Virus record (IMG/VR): IMGVR_UViG_2700989228_000034
Span: 1-64,000 of that record
Source: a virus
Strand: one strand, 5' to 3'
DNA length: 64,000 bases
Within the stretch, counting starts at the first letter, position 1. Each line of letters starts with the position of its first letter. The translations under genes and the position numbers were made by a program. This document shows positions 710-37,274 of this stretch, in pieces. The notes beneath the pieces were generated by a model. The model did no database searches, was not told the DNA's origin, and worked only from the letters and a program-made list of their open reading frames with translations.

Positions 710-773
710 GTTTTAGTTATATAAGTTAAGATTGTTTTTAGGATGTGCTATTACTGTGAAGTAGTAGCATCTA

Positions 774-6239: not shown

Positions 6240-6327
6240 TAGTATAAGGAAGACATATATAGTTCAAAGATAAAAAAGAATATCCTAACTACGTTACTTA
6301 CAAAAATAAAACAAAACATTAGCAAAA

Positions 6328-8151
6328 ATGGTACAGGTAAAATTAAACAAAAGTAACGATAATCCTTTTTATGGATTAAGAAGCTGCCTTAGACTCTTTC
6401 AGAGTGTAGGCAACACAATTGATGCATCATTACTTAATGCTTGTTGGTTAGAAGTTCGAGGAAATAAGGAATACAGGCAAATGTTCTTTAGTTTGCTTTT
6501 CTCAATTGGTGATATTACAGCTAGACAGCATAACATCTTTAAGGGTGTTAAGAGAGATAGTGGTGGTAATGCCAATAGAGAAGGTTTTCAAGTAGTTCTT
6601 GATTGGATGTGGAATAAACATCAAGCTCAATTTGTGAAGTTCCTTGAAGCAGGTTTATTTAATGAATATACTTGCTTTGATTTGCTGTTTAGGAATAGAG
6701 TACAAACTAAATGCTCTAGAGTTATTAGAATACACAATCTCTTTGCTGAAGTAAAATACAGAGAGGTTATTGCAAACTATCTCTATAAGGTTATTAATGG
6801 TAATAATCCTTTCAATAAAACTCTTGTTGCTAAATTCTTGACACTCCCTAGAGTAAGCAAAAGAAGTGGTCATAGCAAGATGCTTCCTGAAACTAAAAAG
6901 GTAATGGAAGATAAGGTCAAGTTACTTATAATGCTCTCAGAACTTATGGGTTGGGAGTATGAAGTAAATGATGGCTATGCTAACTTCAAGGGCTATAGGA
7001 AGTGGAGAAAGGATTATAATGGTGACCTTGAGTCAGTATTGTTCTCTACAGGCAAAATCAATGACTTTGATAAACAATCATTCATTGATTGGTTTGACAA
7101 GCTTCCTTCACAAGCAAGGTTTAGAGTTAAGAACAGAATCCTTTACAGTAAGATTAAAGATACTGAGAAGGCTAAATATCCTAAGTTCCAGCCTTGGCTT
7201 GCTGAATGGGAGAAATACAAGGAGTCTAAACAAGCTGAACAGAGAGTTCTAGAAGAAAAAGTTAGACAAGGGCAAGCTACAGAGGAAGATAAAATCAAGT
7301 TGAAGAAAGTTGCAAAGCAGGCTAAGGTCAATACAGGAGCAACTAACTTCAAAGAGCTATATAATGACATCTGTAATGATAATGTAGATAAGCTTAAGCT
7401 TGAAACATTCATGACTAAGGTTAATCTTCCTTATAATAGTCTTGTAATCATAGATGATTCAGGTTCTATGCATGGCAAACCTTTCAACTTTGCTTCATTC
7501 TTGGCTTCTGTATGTCTATGTAAGAACCCAGATGATGATGGTAGAAACTTACTTGGTTTCTTCAATACTAACAGCCACTGGCATACTTGTATAGATAGGA
7601 AGAATAATTCTATAAATTCTTTCATCAGAAGTGTGACAGTAAAGACTAAGCAAACTCCTTTTGTTGACCCTAAGAAGAGCTTCTATGAGAATTATCAATC
7701 TATCAAGAACTTCTGTAGTGCAGTATTCCAAGGTGGTGGTACTAATATTAGTAGAATACCTGATGATTTGCATAAAGAATGTCAGAAGAATCCTCAGATA
7801 CTTGATGCTCTGAAGAACTACCCTGTATGGACTATCATCAGTGATGGAGAATGGAACTCATTGTGGTCTCCTGAAGCTTCAATGAATGACTTTATGATGA
7901 GGTGTCAAAGATACTTTGGATTTAAGCCATATATTGTAGCTATTGATGTAGATGGTGGTTGGGGCTTTAGTAGTGCTTCTATCAATAGATTTGAAGGTAT
8001 TGAGAATATGATTTACATTCCTGCTAATATAGCACAGATTGAGCAGTTCTTAACTAACTTCAAAGATATGGATATTATGGATGTTTATACTCCTTTACAA
8101 TCATTGTTTAGGAGTAATAGATATGACATAGTGAGAGAGAATGTGCTTTAA
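6328..8151 (+). CDS. Ro60/TROVE-like N-domain + C-terminal von Willebrand A domain protein
   Basis: MIDAS vWA motif LVIIDDSGSMHG about 370 aa from the start, plus a TDG-type strand (WTIISDGEW). The N-domain has VLDWMWNKHQ and CFDLLFRNR, which resemble Ro60 AIADWYNEKG and HKDLLRLSH as recalled from memory. The layout, a ~370-aa helical domain followed by a vWA domain, matches Ro60/Rsr. Confidence 0.45.
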   Translation: MVQVKLNKSNDNPFYGLRSCLRLFQSVGNTIDASLLNACWLEVRGNKEYRQMFFSLLFSIGDITARQHNIFKGVKRDSGGNANREGFQVVLDWMWNKHQAQFVKFLEAGLFNEYTCFDLLFRNRVQTKCSRVIRIHNLFAEVKYREVIANYLYKVINGNNPFNKTLVAKFLTLPRVSKRSGHSKMLPETKKVMEDKVKLLIMLSELMGWEYEVNDGYANFKGYRKWRKDYNGDLESVLFSTGKINDFDKQSFIDWFDKLPSQARFRVKNRILYSKIKDTEKAKYPKFQPWLAEWEKYKESKQAEQRVLEEKVRQGQATEEDKIKLKKVAKQAKVNTGATNFKELYNDICNDNVDKLKLETFMTKVNLPYNSLVIIDDSGSMHGKPFNFASFLASVCLCKNPDDDGRNLLGFFNTNSHWHTCIDRKNNSINSFIRSVTVKTKQTPFVDPKKSFYENYQSIKNFCSAVFQGGGTNISRIPDDLHKECQKNPQILDALKNYPVWTIISDGEWNSLWSPEASMNDFMMRCQRYFGFKPYIVAIDVDGGWGFSSASINRFEGIENMIYIPANIAQIEQFLTNFKDMDIMDVYTPLQSLFRSNRYDIVRENVL

Positions 8152-8349
8152 TAGCACAAATCTATGATACTTACAACATTTTATAATTTGCTAAAATTAA
8201 GATAAAATATATATAAGTATCAATAAGGGTATAGGAGGAGTGATACCTTCTATACTCACTTCAAGACACTTACAAATTTATTTGCTTTTATAAAAAGGAT
8301 GACATAGATTTTATTATATTAGTGTCTACAAACATTCAGTCACTTACAA

Positions 8350-8428
8350 TACTAATAGCATTAGCTCATTTGGGTAGAGCATTAGACTTGTAATCTAAGG
8401 GTAGTTGGTTCAATTCCAACATGTATAT
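8350..8428 (+). ncRNA. tRNA-Thr(TGT)-like element with an unpaired acceptor stem (pseudo-tRNA or Y-RNA-like)
   Basis: canonical D-arm GCTC-ATTTGGGTA-GAGC, anticodon arm TTAGA-CTTGTAA-TCTAA and T-arm GTTGG-TTCAATT-CCAAC, but the 5' ATAGCAT cannot pair with the 3' ATGTATA. The unit is enclosed by the flanking stem AGTCACT(8338-8344)/AGTGACT(8433-8439). Confidence 0.45.
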
Positions 8429-8445
8429 AAATAGTGACTATACAA

Positions 8446-8556
8446 GGGGAAGTAGCTAAAATGGTTTAATAGTATCTTAGATACTTACAATACTAAATCA
8501 ATAAGCAATAGATTTCATAAACTATCAATATGTAGGTTTGAGTCCTACCTTCCCCA
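8446..8556 (+). ncRNA. tRNA-like RNA with a ~57-nt insertion in place of the anticodon arm
   Basis: perfect 7-bp acceptor GGGGAAG/CTTCCCC, D-arm-like GCTA-AAATGGTTTAA-TAGT, T-arm GTAGG-TTTGAGT-CCTAC; the internal region contains hairpin AGTATC-TTA-GATACT followed by TACAATACT; total 111 nt. Confidence 0.45.
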
Positions 8557-8561
8557 CTTTT

Positions 8562-8627
8562 GGCACTTACAAAAGTAACTTTGTTTAATTATTTTTGGTA
8601 CAATACATAACAAGTAGTGCCAATTTT
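8562..8627 (+). ncRNA. motif-bearing stem element without a tRNA-like core
   Basis: GGCACT-TACAAAAG...(48 nt)...AGTGCC, 6-bp closing stem. Confidence 0.3.
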
Positions 8628-8629
8628 AT

Positions 8630-8743
8630 AAGGCAGTCGTCTAGTGGTCAGGACACAGGTTAATAAATATTAGTATCTGATGATACTTACAATACTTAAA
8701 AAAATGGGTCTCTGTAACAGAAGTTCGATTCTTCTCTGCCTTA
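8630..8743 (+). ncRNA. tRNA-like RNA with a ~58-nt insertion in place of the anticodon arm
   Basis: perfect 7-bp acceptor AAGGCAG/CTGCCTT, canonical D-arm GTCT-AGTGGTCA-GGAC and T-arm AGAAG-TTCGATT-CTTCT; the internal region contains hairpin AGTATC-TGAT-GATACT followed by TACAATACTT; possible closing pairs ACAGG/TCTGT; total 114 nt. Confidence 0.5.
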
Positions 8744-8747
8744 CTTC

Positions 8748-8858
8748 AGCTACTTACAATACTATTATTTCATAGGTTCGAGTCCTATATTACCCTTCTT
8801 ATGGATAATTAGCATAGTGGTTAATGCAATACACTGTTAATGTATCAATTAAGTAGCT
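8748..8858 (+). ncRNA. circularly permuted tRNA-like RNA (Asn-GTT-like) enclosed by a 9-bp terminal stem
   Basis: Order 5'-3': stem strand AGCTACTTA; T-arm ATAGG-TTCGAGT-CCTAT; acceptor strands joined as hairpin ATTACCC-ttcttat-GGATAAT (6 of 7 bp); D-arm GCAT-AGTGGTTA-ATGC; hairpin ATACA-CTGTTAA-TGTAT; stem strand TAAGTAGCT. Confidence 0.45.
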
Positions 8859-8907
8859 ATTTTTAGAAAACATTTTTCATTTCATATTAATTTTAATAAA
8901 CAAAATT

Positions 8908-9252
8908 ATGGCAACAAACAAAAAAAATCAGATGTCTATCATCAATGAAGAGAGCATCAAGAAAACACTTGAAGCATTTAAGTCAGCTTACAAAAAGAAC
9001 AAGGAAAAGTATGTAGAAGAGAATGTTAAGGTTGAGGATGTAGTAAGCCTCACTGAAGGATTTTCTGGAAAGAATACTCTTCTTGCAACAACTGTTATCA
9101 TCTCTGTGATGCTCGCTATGCCTCCAAAAGAGTTTATGGCATTCATGGACACTGCAAAGTCAATATCTAGGGTAAAGTTACTTGAAGCTATGCAGGAAAT
9201 TCTTGAGGAGAAGGGAGTGAAGAAAGGTGCAGACAATGACATTGACAACTAA
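8908..9252 (+). CDS. hypothetical protein
   Basis: 114-aa ORF. Confidence 0.35.
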   Translation: MATNKKNQMSIINEESIKKTLEAFKSAYKKNKEKYVEENVKVEDVVSLTEGFSGKNTLLATTVIISVMLAMPPKEFMAFMDTAKSISRVKLLEAMQEILEEKGVKKGADNDIDN

Positions 9253-35752: not shown

Positions 35753-36661
35753 ATGAAATTAATTAATCAAAGTTTTGAGATTCTTGAACAGAAAGATTTT
35801 TCTCTCAAGGGTATTAAGCAATTCATTGAAAGATGTGGGCGTGTATGCTATAAAAGTGAAGATAAAATCACTGACACTTCTTATGAAAAGTTTGTAGATA
35901 TGCTTGAGAGGAAAGACCATGCTAGACCTCTTGAGTTTGGTACAGTACATCTTAAAATGCCTTGGAGTAATTTTAATAATTTTGTAGGATTTTGTATTTC
36001 AAAAGCTGTTTGGGATAGCTGTTGGATAAAGTACCATGTAGATAGAGATTCTGAGGATAAAACTGTATACATTACAACTAATTACAGATACTATAAAAGA
36101 CTTAAATCCCTAAGACCTCTATATGGATACATTAATATAGCAGAGTTCTTTACTGAAGAAGATAATGAATATTACCCAAAAAGATATACAGTACATTTTA
36201 TTACTTCTAGAGGAATAATGGATGAATTTAGAACTCATGTAGGTCTAAGTCATCTTGCTGAAAGTACTAGATATTGTAATTATTCTAAGGATAAATTTGA
36301 TAATCAAATTACCTTTATTCAACCTTCATGGATTATCCTTGATAAAGAAATAGCTCCAATTAATGAACTCTGTCTTCTTGCAGGACAATATGATAGAGAA
36401 AATCCTAATTTAAGATATTTAGCTTCTTTGGTAGATGCTAATTATACCTATATATCATTACTAAATAAAGGTTGGACTCCTCAGCAAGCAAGAGATGTTC
36501 TTCCTTTATCAGTCAAATCAGAGCTTATCTCATGTGGTTTTGGAGATGCTTGGTGTAACTTCTTCTACAGAAGATGTGCTAAGGATGCCCATCCTATGGC
36601 TAGAGAGATTGCTATTCCATTACAAGAAAGATTTAAAGAACTTGGTTATGTTAATCAATAA
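35753..36661 (+). CDS. thyX: flavin-dependent thymidylate synthase ThyX-like
   Basis: FRTHVGLSHLAESTRY approximates the ThyX RHR...S...ESQRY signature, but divergent. Confidence 0.45.
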   Translation: MKLINQSFEILEQKDFSLKGIKQFIERCGRVCYKSEDKITDTSYEKFVDMLERKDHARPLEFGTVHLKMPWSNFNNFVGFCISKAVWDSCWIKYHVDRDSEDKTVYITTNYRYYKRLKSLRPLYGYINIAEFFTEEDNEYYPKRYTVHFITSRGIMDEFRTHVGLSHLAESTRYCNYSKDKFDNQITFIQPSWIILDKEIAPINELCLLAGQYDRENPNLRYLASLVDANYTYISLLNKGWTPQQARDVLPLSVKSELISCGFGDAWCNFFYRRCAKDAHPMAREIAIPLQERFKELGYVNQ

Positions 36662-37274
36662 TCTAGAACTAATAGTCCCTTTGCTACCAAAGAATAATCC
36701 AGAGGTATTCTGCCACATGCAAATAGTATGTAGAGCAAAAGACCATAAGGATGAAAAGGTAAAGGAAGGAGCTATTAAAACATACTTCATAAAGAATGAA
36801 GAATATCTTAGAAAAGTAATGCCTGAGGTAATTCTTCTTTGTGAGCATTATGGAGCAAGAGCTTATATTAATGTGAGTCCAAAGAGCTTTGAGAAGTTAC
36901 AGAAACTTATGTTAGTAAAGCTTGCTTCATTAGTATGTGAAGGCAATATTCAGAATCCAAGAAAGACTCTTAATAGTGTAGCAGGAACCTTAACTTCAAG
37001 GAGTCCTGTATGGATTGTAGATGTTGATAATATGGAAATAAAGGAGCTACTCTTAGGATGGTTTGATGACTATTTTAAGTTAGACCCTACATTACCATTC
37101 TGTAACACTAGGGAAGAACTATATCTTACTGGTATTATACCAACAAAACAAGGTTGTCATTTACTTATAAGACCATTTAATCTTAAAGAGTTTAATAGTA
37201 ATTTTCCTGATGTAGATGTTCATAAGAACTCTATGGGAACTTTATTGTATTATCCTAATAGTATATCAGTATAA
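36648..37274 (+). CDS. hypothetical protein
   Basis: start taken at MLINNLE, overlapping the thyX stop (the track gives 36495 inside thyX). Confidence 0.3.
   Translation: MLINNLELIVPLLPKNNPEVFCHMQIVCRAKDHKDEKVKEGAIKTYFIKNEEYLRKVMPEVILLCEHYGARAYINVSPKSFEKLQKLMLVKLASLVCEGNIQNPRKTLNSVAGTLTSRSPVWIVDVDNMEIKELLLGWFDDYFKLDPTLPFCNTREELYLTGIIPTKQGCHLLIRPFNLKEFNSNFPDVDVHKNSMGTLLYYPNSISV

What the first reader, a model, noticed from the sequence alone, without database searches (positions are those of the whole stretch)
8748..8858. Circularly permuted tRNA-Asn-like element closed by a 9-bp terminal stem
Read 5' to 3', the order is: AGCTACTTA, a spacer, the T-arm (ATAGG-TTCGAGT-CCTAT), then ATTACCC-ttcttat-GGATAAT, which are the two acceptor strands joined into a hairpin. 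Next come a canonical D-arm (GCAT-AGTGGTTA-ATGC) and a perfect anticodon-type hairpin ATACA-CTGTTAA-TGTAT with U33, GUU and A37. The element ends with TAAGTAGCT, the exact complement of the 5' nine nucleotides. So the T-arm half precedes the D/anticodon half. This topology is known for permuted tRNA genes of Cyanidioschyzon merolae and for the tRNA-like domain of bacterial YrlA Y RNAs. It would be unprecedented, or at least unusual, in a phage. CAAT appears at both stem junctions.
Basis: seen in the sequence. Interest (0 to 1): 0.75.

Follow-up and report, generated by a model that had tools for sequence, protein, structure and literature searches.

The report
Permuted tRNA-like RNA beside phage Ro60
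A crAss-like gut phage carries a real, conserved tRNA look-alike whose two halves are in swapped order; it lies in a cluster of odd tRNAs just behind a Ro60-like RNA-binding protein gene, so it is most likely a Y-RNA-type tRNA mimic, which is a known kind of RNA in an unusually complete form.

Summary
Window 8748-8858 reads terminal-stem strand, T arm, closed 7-bp acceptor hairpin, D arm, anticodon arm, terminal-stem strand. Rejoining the halves in silico gives tRNA-Asn(GUU). Across 14 orthologues from crAss-like phages, 98% of cells pair and 18 of 28 pairs show compensatory changes.

It is not an isolated oddity. It is the last unit of an RNA cluster (8165-8858) lying directly behind, and on the same strand as, a 607-aa ORF. 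That ORF's high-confidence model matches Ro60 best. Its syntenic counterpart in crAss001 is a bona fide TROVE protein.

Every RNA in the cluster carries one copy of a module: helix GNYACU/AGURNC followed by UACAAUAYU. The module brackets ordinary tRNAs, sits as a hairpin inside two tRNAs, brackets the permuted element, and brackets the Ro60-like gene's own start codon. In a related phage the same module brackets an Rfam YrlA match.

Best reading: a YrlA-class Y RNA, a type already reported next to Ro60 in phages. This is a new variant: it has a full anticodon arm whose triplet varies between near-identical phages, its stem sits at the variable-arm position, and it lacks the GNCGAA motif. A functional permuted or two-piece tRNA is not excluded.

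The parts
6291..6358 (+). Module around the start of the Ro60-like ORF: S5 CGTTACT 6291-6297, then TACAAAAAT, ATG at 6328, S3 AGTAACG 6352-6358. Candidate autoregulatory operator.
   Evidence: The same arrangement is found in 8 of 9 loci: S5 is always GTTACT at -33 to -44, and S3 AGTAAC sits at +21 or +24 with its synonymous sites fixed.
6328..8151 (+). 607-aa Ro60-like protein: helical repeats followed by a C-terminal vWA domain with a DxSxS MIDAS motif at D376-S380.
8165..8222 (+). Unit 1: TGATACTTA ... TAAGTATCA stem with the motif and no tRNA inside. It is 'empty' in every cluster examined.
8264..8327 (+). Unit 2: AGACACT ... AGTGTCT stem with the motif. It is empty here, but holds a tRNA (Lys or Thr anticodon) in L004, L036, L128 and L129.
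8338..8439 (+). Unit 3: AGTCACT-TACAATACT, then a tRNA (8355-8427, anticodon UGU), then AGTGACT. The module pairs the leader with the trailer.
   Evidence: Rfam tRNA 54.6 bits. Stem. Model R1 scores this unit 30.7 bits.
8446..8556 (+). tRNA-like gene with the module as a hairpin in the D-loop region: AGTATC-TTA-GATACT at 8471-8485, TACAATACT at 8486-8494. It has an 8-nt anticodon loop, TTTCATAA.
   Evidence: Rfam tRNA 41.4 bits with a 37-nt insertion. Conserved in L003, L004, L006 and L008.
8560..8623 (+). Unit 4: TTGGCACT ... AGTGCCAA stem with the motif. The tRNA is mostly deleted here and intact in L003, L004 and L008.
8630..8743 (+). tRNA-like gene whose anticodon loop is replaced by 51 nt that hold the module hairpin: AGTATC-TGAT-GATACT at 8672-8687, TACAATACT at 8688-8696.
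   Evidence: Rfam tRNA 42.7 bits.
8748..8858 (+). The finding: the permuted tRNA-like element. Layout: S5 8748-8756; motif CAATACT 8757-8763; T arm 8772-8788; acceptor 3' strand 8789-8795; loop 8796-8802; acceptor 5' strand 8803-8809; D arm 8812-8827; anticodon arm 8829-8845 (GTT at 8836-8838); S3 8850-8858.
   Evidence: (121.5 bits).

Best explanation
The element is a Y-RNA-type tRNA mimic (YrlA class) of a crAss-like phage. It is transcribed with the other RNAs of the cluster downstream of the phage's Ro60-like gene.

Shown:
- It folds into a complete tRNA cloverleaf in permuted order.
- The acceptor stem is capped by a variable 5-11 nt loop.
- The 5' and 3' ends pair in a stem that emerges where a tRNA's variable arm would be.
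- That stem plus the adjoining single strand (5'-GNYACUUACAAUAYU / AGURNC-3') is a module present once in every RNA of the cluster, and once around the start codon of the Ro60-like gene.

Inferred:
- The module is the docking site of the Ro60-like protein. Ro60 would then carry a set of tRNA-shaped RNAs and repress its own translation through the copy on its mRNA.
- The 7-bp acceptor hairpin is opened by RNase P and 3' trimming or CCA addition, as shown for M. smegmatis YrlA. This would give a Ro60-bound, two-piece, full-length tRNA mimic displaying an anticodon loop.
- The mimic would tether Ro60 to, or decoy, host proteins that recognise tRNAs. Its anticodon triplet changes quickly between phage strains.
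For: 1. The structure is conserved with covariation in all five helices: 98.2% of cells paired, 18 of 28 compensatory pairs, 0 of 500 shuffles. RNAalifold finds the same structure independently.

2. Ro60 link.
- ORF 6328-8151 ends 597 nt upstream on the same strand.
- It matches phrog_850. That family also holds crAss001 Gp96, a Pfam TROVE + vWA_Ro60 protein at the same genomic position, next to an analogous cluster.
- Four of six weak PDB sequence hits of the family profile are Ro60.

3. Gene and cluster occur together.
- All 13 clusters examined lie directly downstream of an orthologue.
- The closest GenBank relatives, cr116_1 and IAS virus, lack both.

4. In L143 the orthologue (62% identical) is followed by an Rfam YrlA match (46 bits, E=3e-9). 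That match is itself bracketed by AGTTACT-TACAATATT...AGTAACT, the same module. My model R1 also hits that locus.

5. The layout matches published YrlA: T arm, acceptor-like stem-loop, D arm, closed by the RNA's ends, within 4 kb of Ro60 on the same strand. M. smegmatis YrlA has a 7-bp acceptor stem, is cut by RNase P and receives CCA (PMC4201824).

6. The module seems to matter by itself. Stems and motif are kept intact and complementary in 'empty' units that have lost their tRNA. A copy also encloses the start codon of the Ro60-like ORF in 8 of 9 loci.

7. The anticodon arm is dispensable in some lineages, while T arm, acceptor hairpin and D arm stay: L003, L133, and the rumen forms with a V hairpin followed by T arm, acceptor hairpin and D arm.

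8. Neighbouring tRNAs of this cluster are aberrant (8- or 6-nt anticodon loops, irregular acceptor stems, inserts). The phage's other three tRNAs, at 774-1991, are canonical and lack the module.
Against: - No binding data exist. Assigning the module to Ro60 rests on linkage and position only.
- The published Ro60-binding hallmark GNCGAAN0-1G (CGAA) is absent from 8151-8910.
- Rfam YrlA does not match the window element even at E<=10. The L143 match is below the family's gathering score (46 vs 69 bits).
- The element has features a mere mimic would not need. It has a canonical 7-nt loop with invariant U33 and near-invariant positions 32, 37 and 38, and variation is confined to the three anticodon positions.
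- A discriminator+CCA is encoded right after the acceptor 3' strand in 11 of 41 relatives, against about 0.4 expected. Both points suit a real tRNA at least as well.
Confidence: 0.55

Rival explanations
1. It is a genuine permuted tRNA gene that yields a working decoder. One route is cleavage at the terminal stem, ligation to a circle and opening of the acceptor loop, as in Cyanidioschyzon. The other needs no ligation: a two-piece tRNA held together by the acceptor stem and the 7-9 bp 'variable-arm' helix, like the two-piece tmRNAs made from permuted ssrA genes. The hairpin versions of the module inside tRNAs 8446-8556 and 8630-8743 would then be a new kind of small intron, removed by the same machinery.
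For: - Rejoined in silico, it is a canonical tRNA.
- All tRNA arms covary.
- Loops keep C/U32, U33, A37 and A38, while only positions 34-36 change. This repeats in other families, for example UGA/GCA/GAA and CGU/UGU/CAU on otherwise conserved bodies.
- The anticodons in the close group (Asn, Ile, Lys, Asp) read A- or G-initial codons. I expect these to be common in an AT-rich phage, but I did not measure codon usage.
- N-CCA is encoded after the acceptor strand in 11 of 41 relatives, P about 1e-13.
- In class II Ser-like tRNAs of L128 and L138, the anticodon UGA sits at 34-36 and the module begins at position 37, the classical intron site.
Against: - There is no bulge-helix-bulge motif. I know of no splicing endonuclease in Bacteroides hosts, and no homologue of the crAss001 polynucleotide kinase lies in this 64-kb window. 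Ligase genes were not searched for.
- Orthologues lose the anticodon arm (L003, L133, the rumen forms) or the T arm and acceptor hairpin (L136), while the module persists.
- One constant body with Asn, Ile, Lys, Asp and opal-suppressor anticodons is hard to reconcile with correct aminoacylation.
- A3-C70 is mismatched in the window copy.
- 'Empty' units keep the module, which a pure processing signal would not predict.
Confidence: 0.25
2. The module is a processing or stability signal read by some factor other than Ro60, such as a host or phage endoribonuclease that cuts next to the helix. The adjacency to the Ro60-like gene is only conserved gene order.
For: - The module always faces the tRNA body in the same polarity, whether at leader/trailer, D loop, anticodon loop or variable region. 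This is what a structure-specific nuclease would need.
- The motif differs between crAss001 (UACUUCAA) and this clade (UACAAUAYU).
Against: - No candidate enzyme was identified.
- A cleavage signal around the start codon of the adjacent gene would destroy that mRNA.
- Presence and absence track the Ro60-like gene.
- Empty units retain the module.
Confidence: 0.12
3. It is a non-functional relic: the 3' part of one tRNA gene followed by the 5' part of the next, left by duplication and deletion. Or the inverted repeats are DNA-level cassette boundaries for recombination.
For: - Tandem tRNA genes do give partial hits to my model (L155, L145). Chen et al. warn of this artefact.
- Cassette content varies between phages, and L138 is a chimera of two elements.
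Against: - The acceptor strands are complementary to each other, with 5 of 7 pairs showing compensatory changes.
- At least three sequence families exist across human-gut and rumen phages.
- No recombinase is nearby.
- The stems covary pairwise per unit, which indicates a structural rather than a sequence-recognition constraint.
Confidence: 0.05

Closest known systems
YrlA Y RNAs (Rfam RF02553; Chen et al. 2014, PMC4201824), including those of mycobacteriophages
   Same: Encoded next to a Ro60 orthologue on the same strand. The 5' and 3' ends form the closing stem. The tRNA-like domain runs T arm, acceptor-like stem-loop, 'UA', D arm. The acceptor stem is 7 bp, as in M. smegmatis YrlA, which RNase P cuts and which receives CCA.
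   Different: YrlA has no anticodon arm, because its Ro60-binding stem takes the place of the anticodon stem. Here a complete anticodon arm is present and the closing stem leaves from the variable-arm position. The GNCGAAN0-1G motif is absent and is replaced by GNYACUUACAAUAYU. RF02553 does not score the window element. The same closing module is also attached to ordinary tRNAs and inserted into others.
Circularly permuted tRNA genes of Cyanidioschyzon merolae, some green algae and Thermofilum (from my own knowledge: Soma et al. 2007; Chan et al. 2011)
   Same: The 3' half lies upstream of the 5' half. Leader and trailer pair. Rejoining gives a canonical tRNA. An intervening loop sits at the acceptor end.
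   Different: Those use a bulge-helix-bulge motif, the archaeal/eukaryal splicing endonuclease and a ligase, and pass through a circular intermediate. None of these is evident here, the host is a bacterium, and some orthologues lack the anticodon arm.
Two-piece tmRNA from permuted ssrA genes (alpha-proteobacteria, cyanobacteria; from my own knowledge)
   Same: A bacterial precedent for a permuted tRNA-like gene whose acceptor-end loop is cut out, leaving two RNA chains held by base pairing, with no ligation.
   Different: It is a tmRNA, not a tRNA with an anticodon. It has no Ro60 link.
Thermus phage phiLo Ro60 with Yrl1/Yrl2 (PMC12135203)
   Same: A phage-encoded Ro60 with adjacent small RNAs closed by a 5'-3' stem. 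It binds host PNPase and damps its activity, which is a candidate function here.
   Different: The phiLo RNAs were defined by the CGAA motif, lie upstream of the gene, and were not described as tRNA-like in the passages I read.
D. radiodurans Yrn1
   Same: A Y RNA for which a possible 5-bp 'anticodon arm' was noted (PMC4201824).
   Different: Its loop is 6 nt, it has no full D arm, and its arm order differs.

Membership tests
YrlA-type Y RNA | Encoded within about 4 kb of a Ro60 orthologue, on the same strand | tested here: met
YrlA-type Y RNA | The 5' and 3' ends pair into a closing stem | tested here: met
   9 bp in the window. Of 7 aligned pairs, 2 show compensatory changes and 99% of cells pair.
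YrlA-type Y RNA | tRNA-like domain in the order T arm, acceptor-like stem-loop, D arm | tested here: met
YrlA-type Y RNA | GNCGAAN0-1G (CGAA) Ro60-binding motif in the 5' strand | tested here: not met
   No G.CGAA anywhere in 8151-8910.
YrlA-type Y RNA | The closing stem occupies the anticodon-stem position, with no anticodon arm | tested here: not met
   A full 5-bp/7-nt anticodon arm is present at 8829-8845, and the stem leaves from the variable-loop position.
YrlA-type Y RNA | Reaches the Rfam RF02553 gathering score | tested here: not met
   No hit at E<=10 in 8250-8950. The related phage locus L143 scores 46.2 bits (E=3e-9), below the cutoff of 69.
YrlA-type Y RNA | Bound by Ro60 in cells | not testable with these tools
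   Needs RIP, CLIP or EMSA.
Permuted tRNA gene (Cyanidioschyzon type) | The 3' half precedes the 5' half, and rejoining gives a canonical cloverleaf | tested here: met
   ARAGORN calls tRNA-Asn(gtt) for 22 of 22 rejoined variants.
Permuted tRNA gene (Cyanidioschyzon type) | Bulge-helix-bulge motif where leader and trailer pair | tested here: not met
   By inspection: a continuous 7-9 bp helix is flanked by 4 nt and 15 nt single strands. There are no 3-nt bulges 4 bp apart.
Permuted tRNA gene (Cyanidioschyzon type) | Matures to a continuous, CCA-ended, chargeable tRNA through a circular intermediate | not testable with these tools
   Indirect evidence only: N-CCA is encoded in the loop of 11 of 41 relatives, but not in the window copy.
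Permuted tRNA gene (Cyanidioschyzon type) | All tRNA arms are retained in orthologues | tested here: not met
   The anticodon arm is lost in L003 and L133, and in the rumen forms with a V hairpin, T arm, acceptor hairpin and D arm. The T arm and acceptor hairpin are lost in L136.
Ro60/TROVE protein (for ORF 6328-8151) | Matches Pfam TROVE (PF05731) | tested here: not met
   No hit for the ORF, 25 close homologues or 10 distant homologues.
Ro60/TROVE protein (for ORF 6328-8151) | Helical-repeat domain plus C-terminal vWA domain with MIDAS, and Ro60 as the best structural match | tested here: met

The most novel reading that the evidence does not exclude
crAss-like phages encode complete, circularly permuted tRNAs, often several per genome. 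These would be matured (opened at the acceptor loop, possibly kept as two chains by a variable-arm-like helix, or circularised and religated) into chargeable adaptors whose anticodon is swapped rapidly between strains. The same helix-plus-motif module would act as a new class of small intervening sequence in the D loop and anticodon loop of other phage tRNAs. A dedicated Ro60-like protein would serve as chaperone, scaffold and autoregulator. That would make these the first permuted or split tRNAs and the first non-group-I tRNA 'introns' in the bacterial/phage world.
Probability: 0.2. Interest if true: 0.9.

Novelty: new variant of a known kind. Interest (0 to 1): 0.62.

Why it matters
Crassvirales are the most abundant phages of the human gut, and their RNA biology is almost unexplored. 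I found no paper that links them to Ro60 or Y RNAs.

If the reading is right, these phages carry a Ro60 particle loaded with a whole panel of tRNA-shaped RNAs. One type is a full permuted tRNA with a fast-changing anticodon. This extends the Y-RNA concept from partial tRNA mimicry to complete tRNAs.

It also offers a defined candidate protein-binding module (GNYACUUACAAUAYU/AGURNC) for testing how bacterial-type Ro60 proteins choose RNAs. It further points to a possible role in the conflict over host tRNA-targeting defences or RNA decay.

ΦcrAss001, which is cultured, has an analogous unannotated cluster next to its TROVE gene, so the question is directly testable.

From my own knowledge, gut-commensal Ro60 orthologues have been discussed as triggers of anti-Ro60 autoimmunity. 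An abundant phage-borne Ro60-like protein is relevant background to that discussion.

Tried and rejected
- **Promoter idea for ACTTACAAT.** The motif is confined to the cluster and the Ro60 gene leader. Exact 12-mers occur 4 times, all in 8342-8763. The sigma-70-type scan is not enriched. The upstream strand covaries with a partner, so it must be transcribed or structural.
- **Bulge-helix-bulge.** Not present.
- **Hammerhead core.** CUGAUGA at 8677-8683 is absent from orthologues (L004 has CUAAUGA). There are no ribozyme hits in Rfam.
- **IS200/IS605-type TTAC target or hairpin ends.** No second hairpin and no transposase.
- **Group I intron.** The inserts are 37-51 nt.
- **Rfam YrlA on the window.** No hit.
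- **Pfam TROVE on the ORF and its homologues.** No hit.
- **tblastn of the ORF against 50,697 phage records.** No match.
- **First AF2 model from a shallow alignment.** It was poor (pTM 0.46), and Foldseek against the PDB gave nothing below E=1e-3. This was replaced by a deeper alignment.
- **hhalign against crAss001 Gp96.** Only the vWA start aligns.
- **Search for a polynucleotide-kinase homologue in the window.** None found.
- **14-mer scan of IMG/VR.** It returned mostly chance hits. An exact 34-mer of the D and anticodon arms found nothing because the anticodon varies.
- **Fixed splice rule.** I could not derive one that regenerates canonical loops from the hairpin-bearing tRNAs.

Full report
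**1. What is there**

The parts are:
- AGCTACTTA
- a 15-nt spacer
- T arm ATAGG-TTCGAGT-CCTAT
- ATTACCC-ttcttat-GGATAAT
- TA
- D arm GCAT-AGTGGTTA-ATGC
- A
- anticodon arm ATACA-CTGTTAA-TGTAT
- CAAT
- TAAGTAGCT

The acceptor hairpin has one A-C mismatch.

ARAGORN does not call it. Rfam's tRNA model aligns only the 5' half, skipping the T arm (8803-8879, 34.9 bits). Joining the two halves in silico with any of 22 short junctions gives tRNA-Asn(gtt) in ARAGORN. Single-sequence folding is not significant (z = -1.2), so the case rests on comparison with relatives.

**2. It is conserved and it covaries**

The window is a crAss-like phage of Steigviridae/Asinivirinae, 91% identical to cr116_1 over shared genes.

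Orthologous elements were found in three ways:
- in IMG/VR contigs
- in contigs fetched through the neighbouring protein
- in a metagenome scan with the D-arm 20-mer

An alignment of 14 elements (A2) gives these results:
- 98.2% of cells pair, against 28-38% with slid partners.
- 18 of 28 pairs have changes on both sides.
- 0 of 500 shuffles are as good.
- All five helices contribute.

RNAalifold predicts the same 28 pairs unaided.

A simple permuted-tRNA scanner run over 1.27 Mb of mostly unrelated viral DNA gave 10 true hits and 1 false hit. A covariance model built from A2 finds several further copies per genome in rumen and animal crAss-like contigs, at 50-82 bits. The element is real and belongs to a widespread family.

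**3. Context changes the interpretation**

The 757-nt non-coding stretch 8152-8907 holds four Rfam tRNA matches and seven copies of ACTTACAA. Each copy is preceded by GNY and has a partner AGURNC, forming a 6-9 bp helix.

The module (helix plus UACAAUAYU) occurs in three topologies:
- **Bracketing a unit.** The units are 8165-8222, 8264-8327, 8338-8439 (with a normal tRNA), 8560-8623, and 8748-8858 (the permuted element).
- **As a capped hairpin inside a tRNA.** One sits in the D-loop region of 8446-8556. The other replaces the anticodon loop of 8630-8743.
- **Around the start codon of the upstream ORF** (section 4).

In all cases the conserved ACU/AGU end of the helix and the motif face the tRNA body.

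Across 13 clusters I counted 93 modules:
- 59 bracketing: 19 with an ARAGORN tRNA inside, 11 with a permuted element, 29 empty or other
- 28 internal hairpins
- 6 without a partner

Units that are empty in this window hold tRNAs in relatives (L004, L003), yet their stems and motif stay intact. Many tRNAs of these clusters have 8- or 6-nt anticodon loops. The phage's three other tRNAs (774-1991) are canonical and carry no module.

**4. The neighbouring gene is Ro60-like**

ORF 6328-8151 (607 aa) lies immediately upstream on the same strand. Evidence for Ro60 likeness:
- It matches phrog_850 'RNA-binding protein' (E=5.5e-5).
- crAss001 Gp96, at the syntenic position next to an analogous unannotated cluster (motif UACUUCAA four times, plus tRNAs with inserts of about 82-90 nt), matches phrog_850 at 9e-33, Pfam TROVE at 5.5e-13 and vWA_Ro60.
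- A deep alignment (61 sequences down to 20% identity) gave an AlphaFold model with pLDDT 90.4 and pTM 0.84.

Caveats:
- Pfam TROVE is not matched by this family.
- Profile comparisons reach Ro60 or Gp96 only through the vWA start.

I therefore call the protein Ro60-like by fold, architecture and synteny, not by sequence-family membership.

Gene and RNA cluster travel together. Every cluster found lies behind an orthologue, and cr116_1 and IAS virus lack both.

The same module also encloses the ORF's own start: CGTTACT-TACAAAAAT at 6291, ATG at 6328, AGTAACG at 6352. This holds in 8 of 9 loci, with the synonymous sites fixed. This is the classic layout of an autoregulatory operator. That function is an inference.

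**5. Link to YrlA**

Chen et al. (PMC4201824) showed the following:
- Ro60 genes of 254 bacteria and 22 phages are flanked, on the same strand and within 4 kb, by YrlA RNAs.
- A YrlA RNA has a closing stem made of the two RNA ends around a T arm, an acceptor-like stem-loop and a D arm.
- M. smegmatis YrlA, with a 7-bp acceptor stem, is cut by RNase P and receives CCA.

In L143 the ORF orthologue is 62% identical. It is followed by an Rfam YrlA match (46 bits, E=3e-9, below the gathering score). That match is itself bracketed by AGTTACT-TACAATATT...AGTAACT.

The window element therefore has YrlA's layout and genomic setting. It differs in four respects:
- It keeps a full anticodon arm.
- The closing stem leaves from the variable-arm position.
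- GNCGAA is absent.
- RF02553 does not score it.

**6. Features pointing towards a real tRNA**

In seven near-identical orthologues the three anticodon positions are all variable (GUU, UCA, GAU, UUU, GUC). Only 17 of 105 other columns vary (Fisher p=0.006), and U33 is invariant. Other families show the same pattern.

Eleven of 41 distinct elements encode discriminator+CCA right after the acceptor 3' strand, against about 0.4 expected. The window copy does not. None of the six tRNA 3' ends I checked by eye in this window (the three canonical tRNAs, and those at 8355, 8446 and 8630) is followed by an encoded CCA either.

These facts say that the acceptor loop is probably opened to a tRNA-like 3' end, and that the anticodon matters. 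They fit either a Ro60-bound two-piece mimic or a working (split or religated) tRNA.

Arguments against a plain decoder:
- The anticodon arm, or the T arm with the acceptor hairpin, is lost in some lineages while the module stays.
- A single body carries five different anticodons.
- No splicing machinery is known for the host.

**7. Verdict**

Shown:
- a conserved, covarying, complete permuted cloverleaf
- membership in a module-bearing RNA cluster linked to a Ro60-like gene

Inferred:
- The module is the Ro60-like protein's docking site and operator.
- The acceptor loop is processed.
- The function is tRNA mimicry (tether or decoy).

Confidence is 0.55 for the Y-RNA reading and 0.25 for a functional permuted or split tRNA. 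The remainder goes to a processing-signal-only reading or a relic.

The kind is known (phage YrlA next to Ro60). The variant appears new: full anticodon arm, new stem motif, and a module shared with ordinary and interrupted tRNAs. I found no report of it for Crassvirales.

Noticed in passing
window 8446-8556 and 8630-8743: Two tRNA-like genes are interrupted by short inserts of 37 and 51 nt. Each insert holds the hairpin AGTATC-loop-GATACT followed by TACAATACT. One insert lies in the D-loop region and the other replaces the anticodon loop. ARAGORN misses both. The inserts are conserved in related phages. They are too short for group I introns, and no consistent splice rule could be derived.
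   Followed up: partly
window 6291-6358: The helix-plus-motif module encloses the ribosome-binding region and ATG of the Ro60-like ORF, with S3 formed by codons S9-N10. It is conserved in 8 of 9 orthologous loci and looks like an autoregulatory operator.
   Followed up: partly
window 8165-8222, 8264-8327, 8560-8623: Three 'empty' units keep a perfectly paired stem and the motif but contain no tRNA. Units 2 and 4 hold tRNAs in L004, L003 and L008. Unit 1 is empty in all 13 clusters, though in some of them (L004, L036, L128) its interior shares a short CATAGATTA stretch.
   Followed up: partly
window 8229-8255: A strong hairpin GTATAGGAGG-agtgata-CCTTCTATAC lies between units 1 and 2. It is kept with compensatory changes in L004 (ATGTAGGAGG/CCTCCTACAT) and L036. 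No T-run follows it. Its function is unknown.
   Followed up: no
window 8355-8427: This tRNA (anticodon UGU; Rfam 54.6 bits) has an irregular acceptor stem, with a bulge or shifted register, in the window and its relatives. ARAGORN does not call it.
   Followed up: no
L127 (crAss001, NC_049977) 35965-36871, minus strand: The cultured reference phage has an unannotated RNA cluster between Gp95 and the TROVE protein Gp96. It holds four copies of (ACT/AGT)-TACTTCAA, each with a partner strand, and at least one tRNA with an 82-nt insert (36454-36597; Rfam 46.6 bits). No YrlA hit was found there.
   Followed up: partly
L148, L161, L165, L174, L177, L179, L137, L159, L142, L151: In 11 of 41 permuted elements the acceptor 3' strand is followed by N-CCA within the capping loop. 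Five more have CCA with no discriminator. This implies the loop is cut to a tRNA-type 3' end.
   Followed up: yes
L138 4457-4571: This is a chimeric permuted element. Its 5' part comes from the AGATACTT family and its 3' part from the AGCTACTT family, leaving one A-G mismatch in the closing stem. It apparently arose by deletion between two neighbouring permuted elements of the kind seen in L036.
   Followed up: no
L140 4416-4540 and L137 4188-4300: These class II (long variable arm, Ser-like) tRNAs carry the module in the anticodon loop and read UUA at positions 34-36, which would be an ochre-suppressor anticodon. L128 and L138 have UGA (Ser) at the same place.
   Followed up: no
L174 2851-3217: A tmRNA gene (Rfam 68.6 bits) lies inside the tRNA array of a rumen phage contig that also carries permuted elements.
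   Followed up: no
window 742-772: A hairpin (GATGTGCTATTACT-GTGA-AGTAGTAGCATC) lies just upstream of the canonical tRNA-Met at 774. It runs in the opposite polarity to the module (ACT-loop-AGT).
   Followed up: no
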